From positions 16,923 to 80,922 of the forward strand of contig RDNZ01000008.1 in NCBI GenBank assembly GCA_011364905.1: 64,000 bases of DNA, read 5' to 3'. The position numbers and the translations under genes are program-made. This document shows positions 37,047-46,519 of this stretch, in pieces. The stretch comes from Candidatus Thorarchaeota archaeon. GTDB taxonomy: Archaea > Asgardarchaeota > Thorarchaeia > Thorarchaeales > Thorarchaeaceae. The notes beneath the pieces are model-generated. The model did not search any database and was not told the DNA's origin. It saw only the letters and a list, made by a program, of their open reading frames with translations. Position 1 is the first letter of the stretch. Each line of letters starts with the position of its first letter.

Positions 37047-37114
37047 CTGAGAGTTCCAAAAGCCTCATAATGTATTCGACACCAGCAGATGCATCTCACA
37101 CTGAGGCATCAATA

Positions 37115-38473
37115 ATGGATTTCTACAAAGATACAGGCACGGAGCCAATTGGTACAGAGGTGCGAACCCATTTCAGTACTGAGATAAATGGTGAGTTGGC
37201 TGGGAAGAAAGTGGTCCTAATGGGATGGACTCACATATTGAGGGATAAAGGGCGAATAAAATTCCTCATTCTCAGAGACGAACGTGGAACTGTGCAAGTC
37301 ACAATTCCTCAGAAGAAGGTGCCTGCAGAGGTCTTTAAGATATCTGAAACACTAAAGCCAGAAACTGCTGTAGCGGTTACTGGAACAGTTGTTGCGACCA
37401 ACCAGGTTGAAAGTGGAGCTGAGATTATCCCAGAGAAGATTAGGATAATCAATACTGCTGAGCGGCTCCCTATTGATGTCGTAGAAGGCAAAACTGACAT
37501 CGATCTTGACACACGTCTTAACTATCGAATCCTAGACCTCAGAAAACCATCAACCCATGCAGTATTCAGGATTCAGTACAATCTTGTTCGATTTGCGAGA
37601 GCATATCTGGAAAGCAATGATTTCATTGAGATTCATACGCCGAAGCTCGTCGCTGAAGCGACAGAGGGCGGTGCAAATCTTTTCGAGGTCAAGTACTTCG
37701 ACAGGAAAGCATACCTTGCTCAGAGTCCACAGTTCTACAAACAGCTCATGCTCCTCGCTGGGTTTGGAAGGGTCTATGAGATTGCTCCAGTTTTTAGAGC
37801 GGAGAAACACAACACGCGACGTCATATCAACGAGTATACATCATTTGATTTTGAGATGGCTTGGATAAGTGGTGTTGAGGATGTCATGGCAATGGAGGAG
37901 AGGATGCTTCATCATTCATTCAAGATGACTAAGAAGCATGCTGCTGCAGAACTCGAAGTCCTTGGTGTCGACTTTGATGTACCAAAAGTTCCTTTCAAAC
38001 GCATAAAGTATGAGAAAGCTATTGAACTTGTCAATGAGGCCGGGAAAGATCTTTCGATTACTGATGACCTTGATCCTGAGTGCGAACGCATCTTGGGTGA
38101 GGTGTTTCCAGAGAAATACGGGACTGACATGGTCTTCATCACTCATTATCCGCTTGAGCTTCGCCCAGCTTATACAATGCCAAGTATGACTGATGAAGGC
38201 ATGACGGAAAGCTTTGACCTGACATACAAGGGGATGGAGATAACAACAGGGGGTCAGCGTATCCATCTGTATGACCTTCTCGTTGAACGTTTCAGGGCCA
38301 AATGCTTCAATCCCGATGACTTTTCATTCTATCTTGATCCCTTCAAATATGGCGCACCGCCTCACGGCGGTCTAGGACTTGGTGTTGAACGAATGACAAT
38401 GCAGCTCCTAGGAATTGAGAACATCCGAGAAGCAACTCTACTACCTCGTGACCGAGACCGTTTGACACCGTAG
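37115..38473 (+). CDS. aspS: Aspartyl-tRNA synthetase, archaeal type
   Basis: OB-fold start, RLNYRILDLR, LAQSPQFYKQ, FRAEKHNTRRH, GMEITTGGQR, PPHGGLGLGVER; start may be 37070. Confidence 0.95.
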   Translation: MDFYKDTGTEPIGTEVRTHFSTEINGELAGKKVVLMGWTHILRDKGRIKFLILRDERGTVQVTIPQKKVPAEVFKISETLKPETAVAVTGTVVATNQVESGAEIIPEKIRIINTAERLPIDVVEGKTDIDLDTRLNYRILDLRKPSTHAVFRIQYNLVRFARAYLESNDFIEIHTPKLVAEATEGGANLFEVKYFDRKAYLAQSPQFYKQLMLLAGFGRVYEIAPVFRAEKHNTRRHINEYTSFDFEMAWISGVEDVMAMEERMLHHSFKMTKKHAAAELEVLGVDFDVPKVPFKRIKYEKAIELVNEAGKDLSITDDLDPECERILGEVFPEKYGTDMVFITHYPLELRPAYTMPSMTDEGMTESFDLTYKGMEITTGGQRIHLYDLLVERFRAKCFNPDDFSFYLDPFKYGAPPHGGLGLGVERMTMQLLGIENIREATLLPRDRDRLTP

Positions 38474-38556
38474 ATAATACTCCCTCTTAAAGCACGAGTG
38501 GTTCTAAGACATCTGCCGACCAAGTGCGGATTAGAAGAACGAAGGGACACACTCCA

Positions 38557-39315
38557 ATGCATGAGCGACTTCAATCAGAACTCTATGCTTCAATTGCTAC
38601 ACTTGACCAGCTGAAAAAACTCTATGACTTTGGTGCAGTGGATATAAGGTCCTATCAGAGGGAGTCCGAAGCCCTTCTTCAGGATGTTCGCACTCAGATT
38701 GAGAATCTTCGACGTTTGGGTCTTGATATTGGGAGATTTGTCACAAGCGAACGGATAATCGAGATATTTCCTGAGGCTGCAAATCTACTCCGACTTGGTA
38801 CTCACGCTCCAAGACGGTCTCTTCAGGGCATGACATTGGACCAGTTCTACGATTACATTGGCCTTGCTATACTTGACGTGGCAACCGAGAACTCATCAAA
38901 GGGCCTCATGGGCTTAGCAGAGCTTATTGTAGAGGTCGTCCGGCGACTTCCTGAGATTGAATCAGTGACCTACAATGATGTCATTGAATCTGTTAATCGT
39001 GTTGCTGAAAACGGGCTGATTCCTGGTATTCGAACCCTGCGAGGAGGAGTCAAAGTCGTGGAGCTTCGACCGCTAGAACTTCGGCGAGACCAAGCTGATG
39101 TGATCAATCTTGCAGCTACAAAAGGATACGTTTCTGTCGAGGAGGTCATAATGCAGCTCAAATGGTCCGAAGATCATGCGCGTCAAGTTCTTTCAAGTTT
39201 GGTGGATGCAGGCATGGCTGTAGCTGATATCCGCTTCTCCACAGGTGGCCGGTACTATTTCCCTGGCTTAAGGTCTCGTGAAAGCACCGATTCACGAAAC
39301 ACAGGTGCTTACTGA
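38557..39315 (+). CDS. Vps22/EAP30-like ESCRT-II protein with an N-terminal Vps28-like (ESCRT-I core) domain
   Basis: C-part FYDYIGLAI...GLMGLAEL...PLELRRDQADVINLA...GYVSVEEV...LKWSEDHARQVL...YYFPGL matches the SNF8/Vps22 winged helices; N-part SELYASIATLDQLKKLY...SYQRESEALL resembles Vps28-N. Confidence 0.8.
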   Translation: MHERLQSELYASIATLDQLKKLYDFGAVDIRSYQRESEALLQDVRTQIENLRRLGLDIGRFVTSERIIEIFPEAANLLRLGTHAPRRSLQGMTLDQFYDYIGLAILDVATENSSKGLMGLAELIVEVVRRLPEIESVTYNDVIESVNRVAENGLIPGIRTLRGGVKVVELRPLELRRDQADVINLAATKGYVSVEEVIMQLKWSEDHARQVLSSLVDAGMAVADIRFSTGGRYYFPGLRSRESTDSRNTGAY

Positions 39316-39317
39316 CT

Positions 39318-40055
39318 CTATGATGATGAAATTATAATCGCTCCTTTCTTCTCATCAATCCACTCAGCTAGTCCTTTCTTGACCATAAGGGCAAGAACTA
39401 TGTGAATGTCCTTCTCTGGGAGGTTAGCAAAATCCTCCTCGACTTCTTGAATGACGATTGATTTCACATCTAGTCTAAGTTTTCCTGTCTTCAATGCCCA
39501 CTGGTACACTATGTCCGCCCAATCTTCAAGAGGTCGCCAATAGACTCTTAGCTGGCGCTGTTTCTTGTCGACCCACTCAGCAACTTCTTTGTTCACGAGG
39601 ACTTCTGCTATATCCCTGAATGAATCTACTTTGTTTCTCAGATCCTTGAATGGTGGTTCACTGATGAACGTAGCTAGAGACAGAATGTGCACCTTGTTAT
39701 TCTCTGTCCACTCCAAGAGATAATCTGCCCATTCCTCTGCCCAAAGATTTCGGTCCTCCTCTCTGGTTGGTATTCCATACATCCATTCAGTTTCCTCAAT
39801 ATCTCCCCAACTTGGCATCAGAGAATCGGGTTCAACGATCTTAGTTTCAAGTTCCGCATCATTCGCAGTTTCGATTTCTGTTTTGGGCTTGACTACTTCC
39901 GTAGTTTCCTCAACTTCGACAACAACTTCTGGAGAATGAGTTGTGTCCTCAGTGATGGTTCTATCAATATCTGGGGATTCAATTTGTTCTTGTTTTACGG
40001 GCTTGGCTGACTTCTTTTGTTTGGCCTTCTCCCGTTTTCTCTCCTTGACACCCAA
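39318..40055 (-). CDS. vps25: ESCRT-II subunit Vps25 with basic/acidic N-terminal extension
   Basis: EEWADYLLEW, AEWVD, VYWRPLEDWADIVYQWA (the Vps25 WRxPEEWxxxIYxW signature); TTG start 3 bp after the vps4 stop. Confidence 0.85.
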   Translation of the reverse strand: MGVKERKREKAKQKKSAKPVKQEQIESPDIDRTITEDTTHSPEVVVEVEETTEVVKPKTEIETANDAELETKIVEPDSLMPSWGDIEETEWMYGIPTREEDRNLWAEEWADYLLEWTENNKVHILSLATFISEPPFKDLRNKVDSFRDIAEVLVNKEVAEWVDKKQRQLRVYWRPLEDWADIVYQWALKTGKLRLDVKSIVIQEVEEDFANLPEKDIHIVLALMVKKGLAEWIDEKKGAIIISSS

Positions 40056-40058
40056 ACC

Positions 40059-41276
40059 TTAGGAACCCTCCGCCCAGTCAATATACTTCTTGACATCCTC
40101 AGGTGGAGTTGCAGGGCGAATGTTTTCAATGGCATGTAGGAAGTCGTCCCTCGATACGGGACGAATGTCGAGGATCTCCTGTTCATCTTCCATTCTGCCA
40201 GTCCGCTGCAAATCCCTAATTGGTTCCAGAGCTGCCTCTCGACAGACTACACTGATGTCTCTCCCGCTGTACCCTTCTGTGAGGTCCGCAAGCTCCTCAT
40301 ACTCGACAGTCGGGGCAACCTCGACATCTTCCATGTGAATCTCGAAAATCTTCGCACGCGCATCTCTGTTCGGAAGAGGAACATGTATCTTCTTCTCAAA
40401 CCTAGATCTCAGAGCAAAATCCAACTCCCAAGGCAGATTAGTTGCACCAATTAGAGTGATTCGTTCATCCTCATTACTTGCTAGTCCTTGGAGTTCAGTG
40501 AGCAGCTGTGTTTTCAGACGTCTCTCACCCCCAACATCATCTCCTGATCTTGAAACACCAATGGAATCCAACTCATCAATGAAGATGATGGCGGGCTGAT
40601 TTTTTCTTGCTAGTTCAAAGAGGCTCATCACCAATCTTTCAGATTCGCCCAACCACTTGCTTACTATATTTGCTGCTGATACGTTGAAGAATGTTGCATT
40701 AACCTCTGAAGCCACAGCTTTGGCGACGAGGGTTTTGCCACACCCTGCGGGACCATAGAAGAGAATGCCTCTCCAGGGTTGTCTGGCTTTTCCCTTGAAG
40801 AGCTCGGGATGCTTCATTGGTGCGATTATCGCATCATCAATAGCTTGTTTTGCATCTTCAAGACCTGCAACCTCTGACATTTTTATTCTAGGACGTTCCG
40901 TAATGATAGTGTCTGAAATCATCTCTCTGAGTCGTTTTTCCTCGTCGTCTAATTCAACTTCCGTCTTTGAGGCTTCATGGATTGAAACTGGCTCAGCTGT
41001 ATCAACATCGACTGTCGGAGGTGAAACAAGTCCATCTACAGGTCCGTGTGACTTCTTCTTGATACCTGAAAGATACCTCACTCTATCCACGCATTCCTGA
41101 GCTCTATCAAAATAGTGCTTCTTAACTGAAGGCAACGCTGATGAATTTGATAACTTAATGAGAATCTTGCTTGCTTTGAGATACTCTTGGCAAGCCTCTT
41201 TTTTCATGCCCCTTTGGTCTAATTCTATTGCTTTAGAGAGCATTGCCTTTAGTCCCTGATCTACGCGGTCTGCCAT
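40059..41276 (-). CDS. vps4: Vps4/CdvC AAA+ ATPase with N-terminal MIT domain
   Basis: MIT (KAIELD...YLKA...YFDRA), PWRGILFYGPAGCGKT, SKWLGESE, IIFIDELD, GATNLPWELD, GYSGRDI. Confidence 0.93.
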   Translation of the reverse strand: MADRVDQGLKAMLSKAIELDQRGMKKEACQEYLKASKILIKLSNSSALPSVKKHYFDRAQECVDRVRYLSGIKKKSHGPVDGLVSPPTVDVDTAEPVSIHEASKTEVELDDEEKRLREMISDTIITERPRIKMSEVAGLEDAKQAIDDAIIAPMKHPELFKGKARQPWRGILFYGPAGCGKTLVAKAVASEVNATFFNVSAANIVSKWLGESERLVMSLFELARKNQPAIIFIDELDSIGVSRSGDDVGGERRLKTQLLTELQGLASNEDERITLIGATNLPWELDFALRSRFEKKIHVPLPNRDARAKIFEIHMEDVEVAPTVEYEELADLTEGYSGRDISVVCREAALEPIRDLQRTGRMEDEQEILDIRPVSRDDFLHAIENIRPATPPEDVKKYIDWAEGS

Positions 41277-41418
41277 CTGAGTTCATGTGAACAGTATTCG
41301 TAAGGTGTTAAGAATTTCTGTCACATCCGAGTACATACATACACAATATCATCTGCGAACTGCGAAGGTTTAAACGGTATCTCCCCACTGGATGAGCTGA
41401 GTATCTCTCTTGGAATAG

Positions 41419-42036
41419 GTGATAGAATTGGGTTCAATTAGAAAGGCATTCTCCTGGGGCAGAAAAAAACCAGATATAGGTGAGGTCTCAAGCCGACTCA
41501 GGATCTTATCCAAGCAGCTAGCGCGCCAAAGGAACAAATTGGAAAAAGAGGAGAGGGACGCTAAATCGCGAGCAGTCCGAGCGCGAAAAGCTGGTCAATT
41601 GGAAGCCTATCGAACATATGCTACTGAGATGGTTCGATTTCGCCGATATGCCCTTTCGGTTGACAAGTCGCGCCTGCAAATTCTGAAGATTCTAGCTCAT
41701 CTAAATCGCGCTCAGACATCAGCGAAGACACAATTAGCATTGCAGGAGGTCGCAAAGATTCTTGGAATGTTGGGGGACGGTTCCGACGCCACTAAGGTAG
41801 TAGCGAATGTAGATGAGATTGCTCGTCGCCTCGAGGAGTTCGAGATTGAAGCGAGTATCTCCGATGAGGCTCTGGATTCAACAATGGAAGTGTCATCTGA
41901 AGACTTGACATTTGCATATCAGGAAATCGATGCTGAAGCTGGGCTTGCTGATACTCCGGCTGTAACAAGACCTGCTAGTGAATCCGAATCTCTTGAAGAA
42001 GATATCAAAGCGTTAGAACGCGAACTTGGAGTGTAG
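41419..42036 (+). CDS. ESCRT-III subunit, Vps2/24/46 (ESCRT-IIIA) type, Snf7 family
   Basis: Basic N-terminal helical hairpin (KLEKEE...ARKAGQ...YATEMVRFR), acidic C-half, MIM1-like end LEEDIKALERELGV; divergent from vps4. Confidence 0.88.
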   Translation: MIELGSIRKAFSWGRKKPDIGEVSSRLRILSKQLARQRNKLEKEERDAKSRAVRARKAGQLEAYRTYATEMVRFRRYALSVDKSRLQILKILAHLNRAQTSAKTQLALQEVAKILGMLGDGSDATKVVANVDEIARRLEEFEIEASISDEALDSTMEVSSEDLTFAYQEIDAEAGLADTPAVTRPASESESLEEDIKALERELGV

Positions 42037-42038
42037 AA

Positions 42039-43616
42039 TCACCACAGTGCATCACGAGATTCTTTGCCGATTCGTTCCATCTCTAGTCTAGTATGGTAGG
42101 AGTCCCTCATCAACTCTCGATATCTTCTAATGAAGTCCTCGGCCATAAGCTGACCACTTCGTAGCATGTGGACAGTATCTCGAATTGCTGCTTCAATGGA
42201 TGCTGCATCTCTTTGTAGCGAATGTAGCCTGGGATTAGTATCATAACTTGGGTGAATACTTGGTTTCTGACCATATTGGCCAACGACTCTGCCAAGCTCA
42301 TCTTTGAATGATTCCGGTTTTCTGTAGTAACTATCGTAGGGGTAATGGCGAACAGGAGAAGGATTCCACCCCTCTGCTCCAGGTATTGAACCTGGTCGCA
42401 TCATTGACATATCTTCCTTGTACTGAGACCTGTCATTGGTGGAGAGGAGTGAATAAACCATCCCTTCGATCTTTAATCGCACATCGCTTGTGCTGATATC
42501 GGTTTGCTCAATCTTTCTGACCCTTTGCATATCAGTTTGTATATACTTCTCAAACTTCCTAGCAATTTCAATATAGTCTGGCAAGACTTTCTTTGTCTGG
42601 TCAGCACATGTTAGTCTAATCTCCCCTTGTTTTAACTTTAAGACGAGGCGTTTTCGGAGTCGCCCATCCTCCTCAATAGATTTCAAATAGAGCAACGGGA
42701 AGTCAAAGATGGTTTCCATCTTCTTTCTGACTCTTCCAGTTTCTGCAATGAACAGCAGTCGTTTGTTTGTCATGAAAAGCATTCCAAGGGCCTTATCGTT
42801 TTTGAGAAAGTCGCTACCTGATATTTTGATATCAGGAAGGGCACACACAGGCAACTCTCCAACTGAAAGTTGACCGTGTTCATAGAACATGGTAAACTGC
42901 CCTTTGTAGTAATCGAGCCCATCAAGCTGCCTCTTGACGTCCTTGAGTGTTTCTCTTAGAGGTTCGAGGGACTCGTCAACATTCTGTTTATAGTAGATAC
43001 CCATCTCTGTTATTCTGTTCGTTATCCCCTCTATGAATGGGAATTGATTTGGATTCCATTGATTATAGTCGATGAAGTCCCTTGTTTCAGCTGCCATTCT
43101 CTTTGCTATGATCTCTGCTTGACTAGAGATTCTATTCTTAATCGCCGGCAGTTCATCCTGCATGCCTTCAATCTTCTCTTCTATCCATTTGTAGTGGAGA
43201 AAGTTAGCCATTCTTAGAGATACAAGCAGTCTCTTTGCACTCGCTAGTTTGTTTGTGAACTCTCTGAGTTTAGTATGTCCATACTGAATAGTCATTATGG
43301 CATGTCGCATATCTAGGGCAAGAGACCTTCTCCGGTCTTCCAGAAGTACGACTCTGGTAGAGTGGCACTTCGGACAGATATCCACTGTTTTTCGTCCCTT
43401 GCTGAGTTCCTCTGATTCACATTGCGGGCATGTTTCGAACTTCTCACCGGGCACTGGTGTTCCCAGTATGTGGTGGCACTCACTGCAAACAATGTACTCT
43501 GTGGATTTTGATTCAAGACATTCCGTACACAAGGCGGCCCCACAGTCTTCACACATATGTGTCGCTCTTCCAGATTGACACGATTTGCATTGGCCCGTTG
43601 GAGAGTCTTTTATCAA
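42039..43616 (-). CDS. Zn-finger / coiled-coil / PH(GRAM/GLUE)-like / steadiness-box protein, putative ESCRT-I Vps23/37-like subunit
   Basis: Six CxxC pairs; long helical region; GMLFMTNKRLLF...FDFPLLYLKSIE; C-terminal SIEAAIRDTVHMLRSGQLMAEDFIRRYRELMRDSY; TTG start with GGAGGT SD. Confidence 0.7.
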   Translation of the reverse strand: MIKDSPTGQCKSCQSGRATHMCEDCGAALCTECLESKSTEYIVCSECHHILGTPVPGEKFETCPQCESEELSKGRKTVDICPKCHSTRVVLLEDRRRSLALDMRHAIMTIQYGHTKLREFTNKLASAKRLLVSLRMANFLHYKWIEEKIEGMQDELPAIKNRISSQAEIIAKRMAAETRDFIDYNQWNPNQFPFIEGITNRITEMGIYYKQNVDESLEPLRETLKDVKRQLDGLDYYKGQFTMFYEHGQLSVGELPVCALPDIKISGSDFLKNDKALGMLFMTNKRLLFIAETGRVRKKMETIFDFPLLYLKSIEEDGRLRKRLVLKLKQGEIRLTCADQTKKVLPDYIEIARKFEKYIQTDMQRVRKIEQTDISTSDVRLKIEGMVYSLLSTNDRSQYKEDMSMMRPGSIPGAEGWNPSPVRHYPYDSYYRKPESFKDELGRVVGQYGQKPSIHPSYDTNPRLHSLQRDAASIEAAIRDTVHMLRSGQLMAEDFIRRYRELMRDSYHTRLEMERIGKESRDALW

Positions 43617-43782
43617 GTGAGTACCTCCGGTAGTCTACTTACATCGAGGAGTTATCCAAGAATAACTCGTGTATTATTCTGGAAACATCGGGGTATCTCT
43701 GTATAAATTGCTAAAAGATTGTACACGCCATATCAGTTATATCCGACTAGAATTGCCTGACCTTAATTCACAGGCGATATTC

Positions 43783-45168
43783 ATGGAAGACCTAGCTCAG
43801 GCAGCCATCGATGCAGCTCTAAAAACCGGTGCAAGTTTCGCAGATGTCAGAATCGAGAATTCTACCACGACTATTATCGAACTTAACGATGGCATCACTC
43901 GACAGTCAATGGCTTCGCGGCTGAGAGGTGCTGGAATCCGTGCATTTGTCGACGGAGCATGGGCATTTGCTCAGACAACGAACCTGACGCGTGAGGGGCT
44001 GAAAGAAACCGCCGAATCCGTCGCCAAGCTTGCTATGGCTACTCGAAACAAAGTCGACGAGAGATTTTCAATTGATGGTCCCGTTTATGAAGACAAAGTT
44101 GAACTGAACGTTAGACGCCCTTTTGAAAGCGTAACGATTGATGAGAAGATGCAATTTGTCCAATTGATTGATAATCAGGCACGTGAGTTCGACCCGAGAA
44201 TCGTTTCTACGAGAACTATCTATGGCGAGTTGACCTCTGAACTATATATAGCCAATTCAATAGGAACGCGAGTTTATCTTCAAAATGCAATTCCAAGAAT
44301 AATCTCAGTACCAACTGCAAAGGACGGTCCAAATCGACAACGAATCCAACAGTCCATCAGTCTTCGAAGCGGGTTCGAAGAAATGGAAACAGAGGCTGCA
44401 CAGAACATTGGTGTGACAGCTGCGAAACTCGCTATCGCTCTCTTATCCTCTAAGGCCGCTGAGGGTGGGATGTATGATGTAGTCCTTGACCCAGCTCTAA
44501 ATGGTGTAGTGACTCATGAGGCGTTTGGCCATGCCACAGAAGCTGACAACTGGATCTCTCACTCGACTGTCCTTGAAGATAAAATCAACAAGAAGGTAGG
44601 TCCTGAATATCTCAGCATAAGCGACGATCCAACACTAGATGGCAAGCGTGGGTCAACAGAGTATGATTGGGAGGGGACCAAGACCAAGAAGCGGCATCTT
44701 GTGAAAGATGGAATTCTTACTGACCTACTTCATAGTCTAGAAACCTCAAGCCGGTTAGGTCTAGAACCTAATGGGGCGGCTCGCTCGCAGTCGTTCATGC
44801 ATGTTCCACAGCCTCGAATGAGCAACACTTTCATGGAGCCAAAGGACTGGGAGGTAGATGAACTCATTGAGGATACGAAGCAGGGGATTCTTCTTTGCAG
44901 TTTCAACTACGGCTATACGCAGAGTGCAAAAGGTCAGTTCATGTTTCAAGCAAGCTATGGATATGTTATCGAAAACGGAGAGAGAGGAACTATGGTCCGA
45001 GATGTATCGCTTGCAGGAAACATCCTCGATATACTAACAAGGATTGATGCGATTGGAAAAGACTTCGAGTTGGAGGCGGGGACATGTGGAAAAGATGGGC
45101 AGAGCGTTCCTACAATGACTGGGGGTCCACATGCTAGAATCAGACAGGTGCCCGTAGGAGGAATGTAA
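43783..45168 (+). CDS. tldD: TldD metalloprotease subunit
   Basis: ADVRIE, HEAFGHATEAD, PRMSNTF, CGKDGQ; ATG 43783 preferred to 43669. Confidence 0.92.
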   Translation: MEDLAQAAIDAALKTGASFADVRIENSTTTIIELNDGITRQSMASRLRGAGIRAFVDGAWAFAQTTNLTREGLKETAESVAKLAMATRNKVDERFSIDGPVYEDKVELNVRRPFESVTIDEKMQFVQLIDNQAREFDPRIVSTRTIYGELTSELYIANSIGTRVYLQNAIPRIISVPTAKDGPNRQRIQQSISLRSGFEEMETEAAQNIGVTAAKLAIALLSSKAAEGGMYDVVLDPALNGVVTHEAFGHATEADNWISHSTVLEDKINKKVGPEYLSISDDPTLDGKRGSTEYDWEGTKTKKRHLVKDGILTDLLHSLETSSRLGLEPNGAARSQSFMHVPQPRMSNTFMEPKDWEVDELIEDTKQGILLCSFNYGYTQSAKGQFMFQASYGYVIENGERGTMVRDVSLAGNILDILTRIDAIGKDFELEAGTCGKDGQSVPTMTGGPHARIRQVPVGGM

Positions 45169-45169
45169 A

Positions 45170-46519
45170 CTGAAGGAGCAGCTCCTTGAAATTGCAGAAT
45201 CTGCAGTGAGGTTGGCTGAAAAACTAGGGGCCTCGCAGGCTGAGGCTTATGTGGGTCAATCTCACGCTTTTTCCATAGAAGCTGAAAACTCCGCAATCCG
45301 AAATGCAGAGGAAACTGTTGATGCAGGGATTGGTATTCGAGCAGTCATAGACAAAAAGATAGGATTTGCGTTTGTCACCACGCTTTCAGATGATGATGTA
45401 CGTGAGGCTGTGGAAAAGTCAGTGATTCTTTCTAGAGCCTCAATACCCGATCCCGACTTTGTTAGTCTTCCGTCTGGTGACGACTCATATCAACCAGTCA
45501 ATGGTCTCTATGACAAGGAAATTGCTGCTCTCTCATCTGAAGAAATCGCTGACATGATAATTAGGGTGATAGATTCTTCCAGACAGGTTCTAGAAGGCCG
45601 AAGTTATGCAATTTCTGCTGGCGTGCAGAGTTCGTTCGGAGTAAATGCAGTTGTCAATTCATTAGGAATCTCATGCTCAGAATCACGGACATCACTGTTT
45701 CTAAGTTCATCTCCAGTAGTAAAGAGTGAGGACGACCAAACAACAAGTTATGATTTTCAATTGACTAGGGACCTCAGTGAAGCGAATCCGGAGCATGTGG
45801 GCGAAAGCGGCGCTGAACGAACACTTAGTTTACTTGGTCCAAGGATTATCGAAGGGGGCGAAATGCCTGTCGTCTTCGCTCCTCTAGGAGCCGCAACTGT
45901 CATAGGGAGAGGTTTTGCTGGTGCTGTGTATGCAGAGGAGGTCCAGAAGGGCCGCTCATATGTCAGCGACGCATTTGGCGATACCATCGCTTCCGAACAC
46001 CTTGAGATAGTGGACGATGCACTGTTGCCCTCTGGTTTGGGTTCAAGAACGTTTGATGCAGAAGGCTATCCATCGCAAAAGACATTGATAATAGAAAAGG
46101 GTGTATTGAAGGGACTACTTCACAACTCGTATACTGCAAACAAAGATAAAGTTCCGAATACCGGGAATGCTAGTAGGCCATCATATTCGGGTCTCCCTTC
46201 GATATCGACTTCTAACTTTATCATCAAACCAGGGAGTGGTACATTAGATGACTTGGTTTCTGAAATAGATAGGGGTGTTGTATGCAGAAACACTGCAGAC
46301 CGTCCGAATATGACCACTGGTGATCTCAGCGCGATGCTATATGAGGGATTTTACATTGAAAGAGGCGAAATAAAGCATCCACTCAAAAACACCCTTATTG
46401 GAATAAACATGCGTGACTTGCTGAAACGGGTCACCCGAGTCGGAAGTGATACAAGAACAACACTCGCAATGATCACTCCCTCGTTTGTAATTGAAAATGC
46501 CACAGTCACATCTGGCTAG
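45170..46519 (+). CDS. pmbA: TldE/PmbA subunit
   Basis: AEAY, GIGIRA, FDAEG, LHNSYTA, TGNASR; no HExxH; probable CTG start at 45170 (alternative GTG 45206). Confidence 0.9.
   Translation: MKEQLLEIAESAVRLAEKLGASQAEAYVGQSHAFSIEAENSAIRNAEETVDAGIGIRAVIDKKIGFAFVTTLSDDDVREAVEKSVILSRASIPDPDFVSLPSGDDSYQPVNGLYDKEIAALSSEEIADMIIRVIDSSRQVLEGRSYAISAGVQSSFGVNAVVNSLGISCSESRTSLFLSSSPVVKSEDDQTTSYDFQLTRDLSEANPEHVGESGAERTLSLLGPRIIEGGEMPVVFAPLGAATVIGRGFAGAVYAEEVQKGRSYVSDAFGDTIASEHLEIVDDALLPSGLGSRTFDAEGYPSQKTLIIEKGVLKGLLHNSYTANKDKVPNTGNASRPSYSGLPSISTSNFIIKPGSGTLDDLVSEIDRGVVCRNTADRPNMTTGDLSAMLYEGFYIERGEIKHPLKNTLIGINMRDLLKRVTRVGSDTRTTLAMITPSFVIENATVTSG

What the first reader, a model, noticed from the sequence alone, without database searches (positions are those of the whole stretch)
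38557..43616. Compact five-gene ESCRT locus lacking ubiquitin, UEV and ESCRT-IIIB, in alternating orientation
Seen: order is (+)Vps28/22, (-)Vps25, (-)Vps4, (+)ESCRT-IIIA, (-)SB protein. The convergent stops are only 2 bp apart (39315/39318 and 42036/42039), and vps4/ESCRT-III share a divergent promoter region (41277-41418). No ubiquitin/E1/E2/E3 or Vps20/32/60-type gene is in the window, although Vps25 normally recruits Vps20. Inference: a minimal ESCRT-I/II/III/Vps4 pathway, with 3' UTRs that probably overlap in antisense.
Basis: partly seen in the sequence, partly recalled or inferred. Interest (0 to 1): 0.7.

Follow-up and report, generated by a model that had tools for sequence, protein, structure and literature searches.

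The report
Standard Thorarchaeota ESCRT gene cluster
This is the ordinary, highly conserved ESCRT membrane-remodelling gene cluster of Thorarchaeota (Asgard archaea); its lack of ubiquitin and UEV partners is real but already published, and the "missing" ESCRT-IIIB gene is elsewhere in the genome.

Summary
Five genes lie at the stated coordinates in the order and orientation given: Vps22-like (+), Vps25 (-), Vps4 (-), ESCRT-IIIA (+) and a 525-aa steadiness-box protein (-). Both convergent stop pairs are 2 bp apart and the divergent spacer is 142 bp.

- No ubiquitin, E2 or UEV gene was found in this genome. Ubiquitin was found in none of 87 genomes of its class, against 107 of 112 other Asgard genomes sampled.
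- ESCRT-IIIB is not missing. A 224-aa Vps20/32/60-type gene lies on another contig, and every one of 42 class genomes has one.
- The genome also holds a conserved weak Vps28-like protein, a 790-aa protein with an EAP30 domain, seven ThiS/MoaD-type proteins, and a sporadic Ubl-E2-E1-JAB cassette.
- The gene spacings are typical of this compact genome.

The whole locus, including its flanking aspartyl/asparaginyl-tRNA synthetase (AspRS/AsnRS-type) and TldD/PmbA genes, is conserved in all 16 genera of the family. Close relatives include Thorarchaeota SMTZ1-45 and AB_25.

The literature already reports that Thorarchaeota lack ubiquitin and UEV-Vps23, and it describes the Znr_PH_CC_SB family. The scan's own index lists earlier first-reader notes and withheld follow-up reports on this same stretch, and notes on the Ubl cassette elsewhere in this genome.

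Verdict: already known, low interest.

The parts
38557..39315 (+). vps22 (ESCRT-II Vps22/SNF8-like): an N-terminal helical hairpin followed by tandem winged helices. The probable start is ATG 38557; an upstream in-frame GTG lies at 38524.
   Evidence: PF04157 EAP30, 53.5 bits. Profile of 18 orthologues against human SNF8, E 2e-19. The Met at 38557 is invariant in the 18 orthologues. AF2 mean pLDDT 80, with helices 11-35 and 41-64 followed by two winged helices. Best Foldseek hits are Vps22 chains 2zme_A, 3cuq_A and 1u5t_A. Weak VPS28 N-terminal hit, E 0.011, seen in 8 of 18 orthologues.
39318..40055 (-). vps25 (ESCRT-II Vps25): a conserved basic N-terminal peptide (MGVRER..), a variable acidic linker of about 75 aa that is probably disordered, and a tandem winged-helix core.
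   Evidence: PF05871, 61.2 bits. Orthologue profile against Odinarchaeota Vps25 7pb9, E 2e-44, and human Vps25, E 2e-9. Alignment A3 shows the conserved N-terminus. The start codon lies 3 nt after the vps4 stop here and in 15 of 18 loci from other genomes.
40059..41276 (-). vps4 (MIT-AAA ATPase), upstream of vps25 on the same strand, probably one operon with it.
   Evidence: AAA 135.5 bits, AAA_lid_3 50.6 bits, Vps4_C 24 bits (over its cut-off), MIT 22.8 bits (under its cut-off). The sequence shows Walker A GPAGCGKT and the pore-loop motif KWLGESE.
41277..41418 (.). 142-bp divergent intergenic region between vps4 and ESCRT-IIIA. It holds A/T-rich TATA-like elements: TTTAAA at 41369-41374, and AAATTCTTAA on the minus strand at 41308-41317.
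   Evidence: Sequence read. The spacer is 135-192 bp in 15 of 18 related loci. The genome-wide median divergent spacer is 146 bp. Promoter function is inferred; no tool for archaeal promoters was available.
41419..42036 (+). ESCRT-IIIA (Vps2/24/46-type Snf7-family protein) with an amphipathic C-terminal helix that may be MIM1-like.
   Evidence: PF03357, 36.6 bits. Best solved relatives are CHMP1B (E 1.7e-7), CHMP2A and CHMP3, ahead of Snf7.
42039..43616 (-). Zn-finger / coiled-coil / PH(GRAM/GLUE-like) / steadiness-box protein. It is Vps23-like without a UEV domain and corresponds to the published Znr_PH_CC_SB architecture.
   Evidence: Twelve invariant Cys in six CxxC pairs. AF2 mean pLDDT 80: beta-rich Zn region 1-91, long helices 92-247, beta-sandwich with helix 256-353, low-confidence stretch 396-459, helical hairpin 462-524. 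Profile against yeast Vps23 core 2p22_A, E 3.9e-4, and steadiness-box fragments 2caz and 2f66, E about 0.01. Foldseek hits to the MTMR2 PH-GRAM domain and the EAP45 GLUE domain 2hth_B. Single copy in 41 of 42 class genomes, the exception being one ORF whose hit splits in two.

Best explanation
This is the core ESCRT locus of a Thorarchaeota (Asgard) archaeon, in the same genus as SMTZ1-45 and AB_25. It has four transcription units: vps22 (+); the vps4-vps25 operon (-); ESCRT-IIIA (+); and a UEV-less Vps23-like adaptor (-).

Inferred mechanism, by homology and from published yeast two-hybrid data:
1. The adaptor sits on membrane through its PH/GRAM-like domain and Zn module. It assembles an ESCRT-I-like headpiece through its steadiness-box hairpin.
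2. This connects to an ESCRT-II made of Vps22 (a homodimer) and Vps25.
3. Vps25 nucleates ESCRT-IIIB, which is encoded on another contig.
4. ESCRT-IIIB co-polymerises with ESCRT-IIIA.
5. Vps4 remodels and disassembles the polymer through MIT-MIM contacts.

Cargo or site selection cannot go through eukaryote-type ubiquitin, because the whole class lacks ubiquitin, E2 and UEV genes.

Shown here: gene identities, domain architectures, conservation and the absences. Inferred: every protein-protein and protein-membrane step.
For: Identities: Pfam; PDB sequence and profile searches; AF2 models with Foldseek.

Conservation: the adaptor is found in 42 of 42 class genomes. The order AspRS | vps22 | vps25-vps4 | ESCRT-IIIA | adaptor | TldD/PmbA x2 is kept in 18 loci spanning 16 genera, with one local rearrangement.

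Taxon: the nearest public records are Candidatus Thorarchaeota MAGs, including SMTZ1-45 and AB_25 at 83% identity.

ESCRT-IIIB elsewhere.

Absence of ubiquitin, E2 and UEV, with positive controls.

Literature: Thorarchaeota lack ubiquitin; Vps25 binds ESCRT-IIIB; Thor Vps22 self-interacts (PMC9192718). Thorarchaeia lack UEV-Vps23 (bioRxiv 10.1101/2023.07.25.550441). Znr_PH_CC_SB is proposed as a likely Asgard ESCRT-I component, and vps25 is co-directed with vps4 (PMC10936438).
Against: No interaction, localisation or expression was measured here. The genome is only 80.8% complete, although class-wide data and two single-contig genomes offset this. The Pfam ubiquitin, UQ_con and UEV models could miss very divergent versions; the Ubl and E2-like genes of the C12 cassette escaped them. 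Whether the system sorts proteins, divides cells or repairs membrane is not known.
Confidence: 0.88

Rival explanations
1. A truly minimal pathway: ESCRT-IIIA alone polymerises downstream of Vps25, with no Vps20/32/60-type subunit.
For: There is no second Snf7 gene within the window or within 10 kb of the locus in 18 related genomes of the same family.
Against: A 224-aa Snf7 protein on C95 scores 60 bits. Its best solved relative is Heimdallarchaeota ESCRT-IIIB, matched over its full length at E 6e-11. Its C-terminus has a proline-containing, MIM2-like stretch (LPPLEREGTLP). It is present in 42 of 42 class genomes. Published two-hybrid data link Asgard Vps25 to ESCRT-IIIB (PMC9192718).
Confidence: 0.04
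2. The pathway does depend on a ubiquitin-like tag. That tag would be a non-canonical one: either the product of the Ubl(GG-A)-E2-like-tandem-ThiF E1-JAB cassette on contig C12, or a SAMP/ThiS-type protein.
For: The C12 operon is read: a 79-aa protein ending in GGA, a 129-aa protein with an HPK...C motif, a 636-aa double-ThiF protein, and a protein with the JAMM motif HTHPG..S..D (Prok-JAB, E 0.01). The genome also has seven ThiS/MoaD-type genes and a MoeB-like E1.
Against: The cassette's E1 was found in only 3 of 33 class genomes of at least 92% completeness, while the ESCRT locus is universal. No UEV-type reader or other known ubiquitin-binding ESCRT domain was found. SAMP-type proteins are common in archaea that have no ESCRT-I or ESCRT-II; this last point is from general knowledge.
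Confidence: 0.05
3. Ubiquitin, E2 and UEV genes exist but were missed because the assembly is incomplete.
For: Completeness is 80.8% in 95 contigs.
Against: Ubiquitin was found in 0 of 87 genomes of the class, including 24 of high quality and two single-contig assemblies. In other Asgard families it was found in 107 of 112 genomes sampled. UQ_con passed its cut-off in 0 of 33 class genomes but in 5 of 5 control Asgard genomes, where it picks up both E2 and UEV-type proteins.
Confidence: 0.03

Closest known systems
Thorarchaeota ESCRT gene cluster, as catalogued by Hatano et al. 2022 (PMC9192718) and Makarova et al. 2024 (PMC10936438)
   Same: The same gene set: Vps22, Vps25, Vps4, ESCRT-III and a steadiness-box protein. 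Vps25 is co-directed with Vps4. The lineage has no ubiquitin. The adaptor protein is 83% identical to those of SMTZ1-45 and AB_25.
   Different: No material difference. This is another genome of the same genus. I could not view the published figures to compare gene by gene.
Ubiquitin-ESCRT clusters of Odin-, Heimdall-, Hel- and Lokiarchaeota
   Same: Homologous ESCRT-II, ESCRT-III and Vps4 genes, and the tight Vps25-Vps4-ESCRT-III association.
   Different: Those lineages carry ubiquitin, E1/E2/E3 and UEV or UEV-Vps23 genes, often in the same cluster. Here none was found, ESCRT-IIIB is unlinked, and the only ESCRT-I-type gene in the locus is the UEV-less Zn/CC/PH/SB protein.
Eukaryotic ESCRT-I/II/III/Vps4 pathway (Vps23/TSG101, Vps28, Vps22/36/25, Vps20/32, Vps2/24, Vps4)
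   Same: The steadiness-box hairpin (profile hit to yeast Vps23). The Vps22 and Vps25 tandem winged-helix folds. Two ESCRT-III classes. A Vps4 with a weak MIT match, AAA and Vps4_C domains. A PH/GLUE-like domain as in Vps36/EAP45.
   Different: There is no UEV, no ubiquitin, no Vps36 and no Vps37. The PH-like domain sits on the Vps23-like protein rather than on an ESCRT-II subunit. Only one ESCRT-III of each class was found.
Cdv system of the TACK archaea (CdvA/CdvB/CdvC)
   Same: An ESCRT-III plus Vps4 core working without ubiquitin. CdvA is a membrane-binding coiled-coil adaptor, and Makarova et al. report similarity between it and the steadiness box.
   Different: Cdv has no separate Vps22/Vps25 ESCRT-II proteins and no PH or Zn adaptor. 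A role of the Thor locus in cell division is untested.

Membership tests
ESCRT-II Vps22/SNF8 (EAP30 family) | EAP30 domain above the Pfam threshold, and an N-terminal helical region followed by tandem winged helices | tested here: met
   PF04157 scores 53.5 bits against a 26.8-bit cut-off. Profile against human SNF8, E 2e-19, with the same register. Best Foldseek hits are Vps22 chains, ahead of Vps36.
ESCRT-I Vps28 | An N-terminal core hairpin AND the C-terminal four-helix bundle (Vps28-CTD) | tested here: not met
   In gene 1 only VPS28 profile positions 2-78 match, at E 0.011 and below the cut-off. The same weak hit appears in 8 of 18 orthologues. PDB Vps28 hits have E about 0.5. Gene 1 has no CTD. 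hhalign of gene 1 against the gene 5 steadiness box gives probability 1.1%.
ESCRT-II Vps25 | ESCRT-II (PF05871) domain; tandem winged helices | tested here: met
   61.2 bits against a 27-bit cut-off. Profile against Odinarchaeota Vps25 7pb9, E 2e-44.
Vps4/CdvC ATPase | An N-terminal MIT domain, a single AAA+ cassette and the Vps4 C-terminal helix | tested here: met
   AAA 135.5 bits and Vps4_C 24 bits (cut-off 21.3). MIT scores 22.8 bits, below its 30-bit cut-off. The pore-loop motif KWLGESE is in the sequence.
ESCRT-IIIA (Vps2/24/46 class) | Snf7-family core that is closer to CHMP1/2/3 than to Snf7/Vps20 | tested here: met
   PF03357 scores 36.6 bits. CHMP1B, CHMP2A and CHMP3 hits (E 1.7e-7 to 3e-4) rank ahead of Snf7 (E 0.03). 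No phylogeny was built.
ESCRT-IIIB (Vps20/32/60 class) within the locus | A second Snf7-family gene next to vps4/vps25 | tested here: not met
   There is none in the window. The gene is at G000:C95:14028-14702. It is unlinked in every genome of the family where both genes lie on one contig, for example G052, G003 and G026.
Asgard Znr_PH_CC_SB family (cog.011556 of Makarova et al. 2024) | Zn ribbons, a coiled coil, a PH domain and a C-terminal steadiness box | tested here: met
   All four modules were seen. Assignment to the asCOG profile itself is not testable with these tools.
Eukaryote-like ubiquitin-ESCRT pathway | Ubiquitin, an E2, and a UEV-bearing ESCRT-I subunit in the genome | tested here: not met
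   Own genome: none found. Class: ubiquitin 0 of 87, UQ_con 0 of 33 over its cut-off, UEV 0 of 33. Positive controls in other Asgard genomes.

The most novel reading that the evidence does not exclude
Thorarchaeota run a complete ESCRT-I/II/III pathway with no ubiquitin. On this reading the universally conserved Zn/coiled-coil/PH/steadiness-box protein selects the target, reading lipid or cargo directly. The conserved basic N-terminal peptide of Vps25 (MGVRER.., followed by a variable acidic linker) would be a previously unnoticed contact motif for membrane or for Vps4. The first half is already hypothesised in the literature. Only the Vps25 peptide and the exact wiring would be new.
Probability: 0.3. 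Interest if true: 0.4.

Novelty: already known. Interest (0 to 1): 0.15.

Why it matters
Thorarchaeota are a natural case of an Asgard ESCRT-I/II/III machine working without ubiquitin. That bears on whether ubiquitin coupling was ancestral to Asgard archaea or added later. This point, the gene set and the unusual adaptor are all in print already. This window adds one more example, plus a quantified picture of how invariant the locus is across 16 genera.

Tried and rejected
- Profile-profile comparison of the gene 1 N-terminus with the gene 5 steadiness box (hhalign): probability 1.1%, so no support for homology between the two hairpins.
- The C3 433-aa 'Vps28-like' protein stays a weak candidate. 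phmmer against PDB found nothing relevant, and the ESM Atlas returned only unnamed archaeal clusters. The VPS28 hit spans profile positions 19-186 of 188 but has E 0.01. The protein is nonetheless present in 19 of 19 class genomes searched.
- PADLOC on the C12 cassette: only the ThiF core of the E1 matched the E1-E2 and BilD models, weakly.
- The idea that the 2-bp convergent junctions are special was rejected. 34% of convergent pairs in this genome are 5 bp apart or less. Related loci vary from -26 to +184 bp.
- The bacterial-type promoter/terminator scanner was not used, because it does not apply to archaea.
- RING E3 genes were not searched for.
Full report
**What is there.** The region holds five ORFs in the order and orientation reported.
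- 38524/38557-39315 (+): EAP30/Vps22 family, 53.5 bits.
- 39318-40055 (-): ESCRT-II/Vps25, 61.2 bits.
- 40059-41276 (-): Vps4, with AAA at 135.5 bits, AAA_lid_3, Vps4_C and a sub-threshold MIT.
- 41419-42036 (+): Snf7 family, 36.6 bits.
- 42039-43616 (-): 525 aa with only a weak B-box hit.

The flanking genes are a class II Asp/Asn-type tRNA synthetase (37070-38473) and two TldD/PmbA genes (43669-46519). Both convergent stop pairs are 2 bp apart, and the vps4/ESCRT-III divergent spacer is 142 bp.

**Is the spacing special?** No. In a rough ORF-based gene call of the whole genome, 34% of 519 convergent pairs are 5 bp apart or less (median 24 bp). The median divergent spacer is 146 bp. In 18 related loci the two convergent junctions range from -26 to +184 bp, mostly 0-16 bp. 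With 2 bp between stops, transcripts must run a short way into the opposite gene. This holds genome-wide and was not measured here.

**Organism and conservation.** The window is G000:C87:16923-80922 of a 3.08-Mb assembly in 95 contigs, 80.8% complete. Public relatives of the 525-aa protein are Candidatus Thorarchaeota MAGs, including SMTZ1-45 and AB_25 at 83% identity. The 525-aa protein is found in 42 of 42 class genomes of at least 90% completeness, as one copy in all but one, where the hit splits within a single ORF. I fetched 19 loci, one per genus plus extras. The block AspRS | vps22 | vps25-vps4 | ESCRT-IIIA | adaptor | TldD/PmbA x2 is kept in all 18 loci of the family, which span 16 genera. 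One genome (G005) has a local rearrangement.

The single genome of the sister family (G001) keeps the adaptor next to two Snf7 genes, but has no vps4, vps25 or vps22 within 10 kb.

**Gene 1 (Vps22).** The orthologue profile matches human SNF8 at E 2e-19, with profile position 95 aligned to SNF8 residue 89. The protein therefore has the same length and layout as eukaryotic Vps22. The AF2 model (mean pLDDT 80) shows a helical hairpin (residues 11-35 and 41-64), a short linker and two winged helices. Its best Foldseek hits are Vps22 chains, ahead of Vps36.

A weak Vps28 N-terminal signal exists: PF03997 positions 2-78 at E 0.011, seen in 8 of 18 orthologues, and PDB Vps28 hits at E about 0.5. There is no Vps28 C-terminal domain. 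Makarova et al. describe Asgard Vps22 as fused to a steadiness box. I read this as the native Vps22 N-terminal helical region with distant steadiness-box-like features, not as an ESCRT-I/ESCRT-II fusion.

**Genes 2 and 3 (Vps25 and Vps4).** Vps25 best matches the Odinarchaeota Vps25 crystal structure (E 2e-44). All 18 orthologues begin with a conserved basic peptide (MGVRER..). A variable acidic stretch of about 75 aa follows, and then the winged-helix core from Pro81. The start codon lies 3 nt after the vps4 stop here and in 15 of 18 other genomes. This supports the long ORF and a vps4-vps25 operon, in line with the published remark that vps25 is co-directed with vps4.

**Gene 4 and the 'missing' ESCRT-IIIB.** The window's Snf7 protein is closest to CHMP1B, CHMP2A and CHMP3, so it belongs to the IIIA class. 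A second Snf7 gene lies at C95:14028-14702. It is 224 aa, scores 60 bits, and sits among housekeeping genes. Its best solved match is Heimdallarchaeota AB_125 ESCRT-IIIB over its full length (E 6e-11), and it has a proline-containing, MIM2-like C-terminal stretch. It is present in 42 of 42 class genomes. Where both genes lie on one contig they are hundreds of kb apart, as in G052, G003 and G026. The lack of ESCRT-IIIB is therefore a property of the locus, not of the pathway.

**Gene 5 (adaptor).**
- The orthologue alignment shows 12 invariant Cys in six CxxC pairs.
- The AF2 model (mean pLDDT 80) gives a Zn-binding beta region (1-91), long helices (92-247), a beta-sandwich with a C-terminal helix (256-353), a low-confidence stretch (396-459) and a helical hairpin (462-524).
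- The best profile hit in the PDB is the yeast Vps23 ESCRT-I core (2p22_A, E 3.9e-4), followed by its steadiness-box fragments.
- Foldseek finds the MTMR2 PH-GRAM domain and the EAP45 GLUE domain.

This matches the Znr_PH_CC_SB architecture that Makarova et al. propose as an Asgard ESCRT-I component. The first four CxxC pairs may form a cross-braced finger instead of simple ribbons. RING, PHD, B-box and FYVE hits at E 0.001-0.03 point that way, but I did not resolve it.

**Ubiquitin system.**
- Own genome: no ubiquitin, no UQ_con and no significant UEV match.
- Class: ubiquitin in 0 of 87 genomes, including two single-contig assemblies.
- Other Asgard families: ubiquitin in 107 of 112 genomes sampled.
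- UQ_con passes its cut-off in 0 of 33 class genomes, with one sub-threshold hit. UEV matches in 0 of 33.
- In five other Asgard genomes UQ_con finds both E2 and UEV-type proteins in every one.

This result is published. Hatano et al. state that Thorarchaeota seemingly lack ubiquitin. [quoted passage not shown]

**Other relevant genes in the genome.**
- A 433-aa protein on C3 gives a weak VPS28 match over profile positions 19-186 of 188 (E 0.01). It is conserved in 19 of 19 class genomes searched.
- A 790-aa protein on C95 has a sub-threshold C-terminal EAP30 domain.
- There are seven ThiS/MoaD-type genes and a MoeB-like E1.
- Contig C12 carries a cassette of a Ubl ending in GGA, an E2-like protein, a tandem-ThiF E1, a JAMM protein and a transglutaminase-like protein. 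The Ubl, the E2-like protein and the JAMM protein are called from sequence motifs (the JAMM protein also has a sub-threshold Prok-JAB hit, E 0.01), not from significant model matches. Its E1 occurs in only 3 of 33 class genomes. It is thus an accessory element and unlikely to be the partner of a universal ESCRT locus.

**Mechanism (inferred).**
1. The adaptor binds membrane through its PH/GRAM-like and Zn modules.
2. Its steadiness box builds an ESCRT-I-like headpiece.
3. The Vps22 homodimer and Vps25 form ESCRT-II.
4. Vps25 recruits ESCRT-IIIB.
5. ESCRT-IIIA co-assembles.
6. Vps4 disassembles the polymer.

Published two-hybrid data give Thor Vps22 self-interaction and Asgard Vps25-ESCRT-IIIB contacts.

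**Verdict.** The biology is already documented. The scan's own index also lists earlier first-reader notes and withheld follow-up reports on this same stretch, and notes on the C12 cassette. Novelty: already known. Interest: low.

Noticed in passing
G000:C12:45672-49681 (L015:7672-11681, minus strand): Operon of a 79-aa protein ending ..AGGA (Ubl-like), a 129-aa protein with an FHPK..C / MCLGNL motif (E2-like), a 636-aa tandem-ThiF E1-like protein and a 380-aa protein with the JAMM motif HTHPG..S..D. A transglutaminase-like gene follows. The Ubl and E2-like proteins are invisible to the Pfam ubiquitin and UQ_con models. The E1 was found in only 3 of 33 class genomes. The scan has already followed this up elsewhere.
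   Followed up: partly
window 39818-40055 (Vps25 N-terminus): All 18 orthologues share a basic N-terminal peptide (MGVRERxREK), followed by a variable acidic linker of about 75 aa that is probably disordered. The start codon lies 3 nt after the vps4 stop in 15 of 18 other genomes. The role of the peptide is unknown.
   Followed up: partly
G000:C95:55483-57855 (L043:3483-5855:+): A 790-aa protein whose last 180 residues or so match EAP30 over nearly the whole profile but below threshold (E 6e-5). It is not next to any ESCRT gene. It may be a second, large Vps22/36-type protein.
   Followed up: partly
G000:C3:356-1657 (L016:356-1657:+): A 433-aa protein with a weak VPS28 match over profile positions 19-186 of 188 (E 0.01). 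It is conserved as a single copy in 19 of 19 class genomes searched and is unlinked to the ESCRT locus. PDB sequence search and the Atlas gave nothing.
   Followed up: partly
L041:9442-12194 (G001:C23, sister family): In the only genome of the sister family, the adaptor is followed by two Snf7 genes in tandem, one IIIB-like and one IIIA. No vps4, vps25 or vps22 lies within 10 kb. ESCRT-IIIB linkage therefore differs between the two families.
   Followed up: partly
window 2679-32290 (-): Two adjacent giant ORFs of 3981 and 5889 aa fill almost half the window.
   Followed up: no
window 42039-43616, residues 1-91 of the protein: The first four of the six invariant CxxC pairs give weak profile hits to RING, PHD, B-box and FYVE fingers (E 0.001-0.03). 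This hints at a cross-braced Zn finger in place of the three simple Zn ribbons described in the literature.
   Followed up: no
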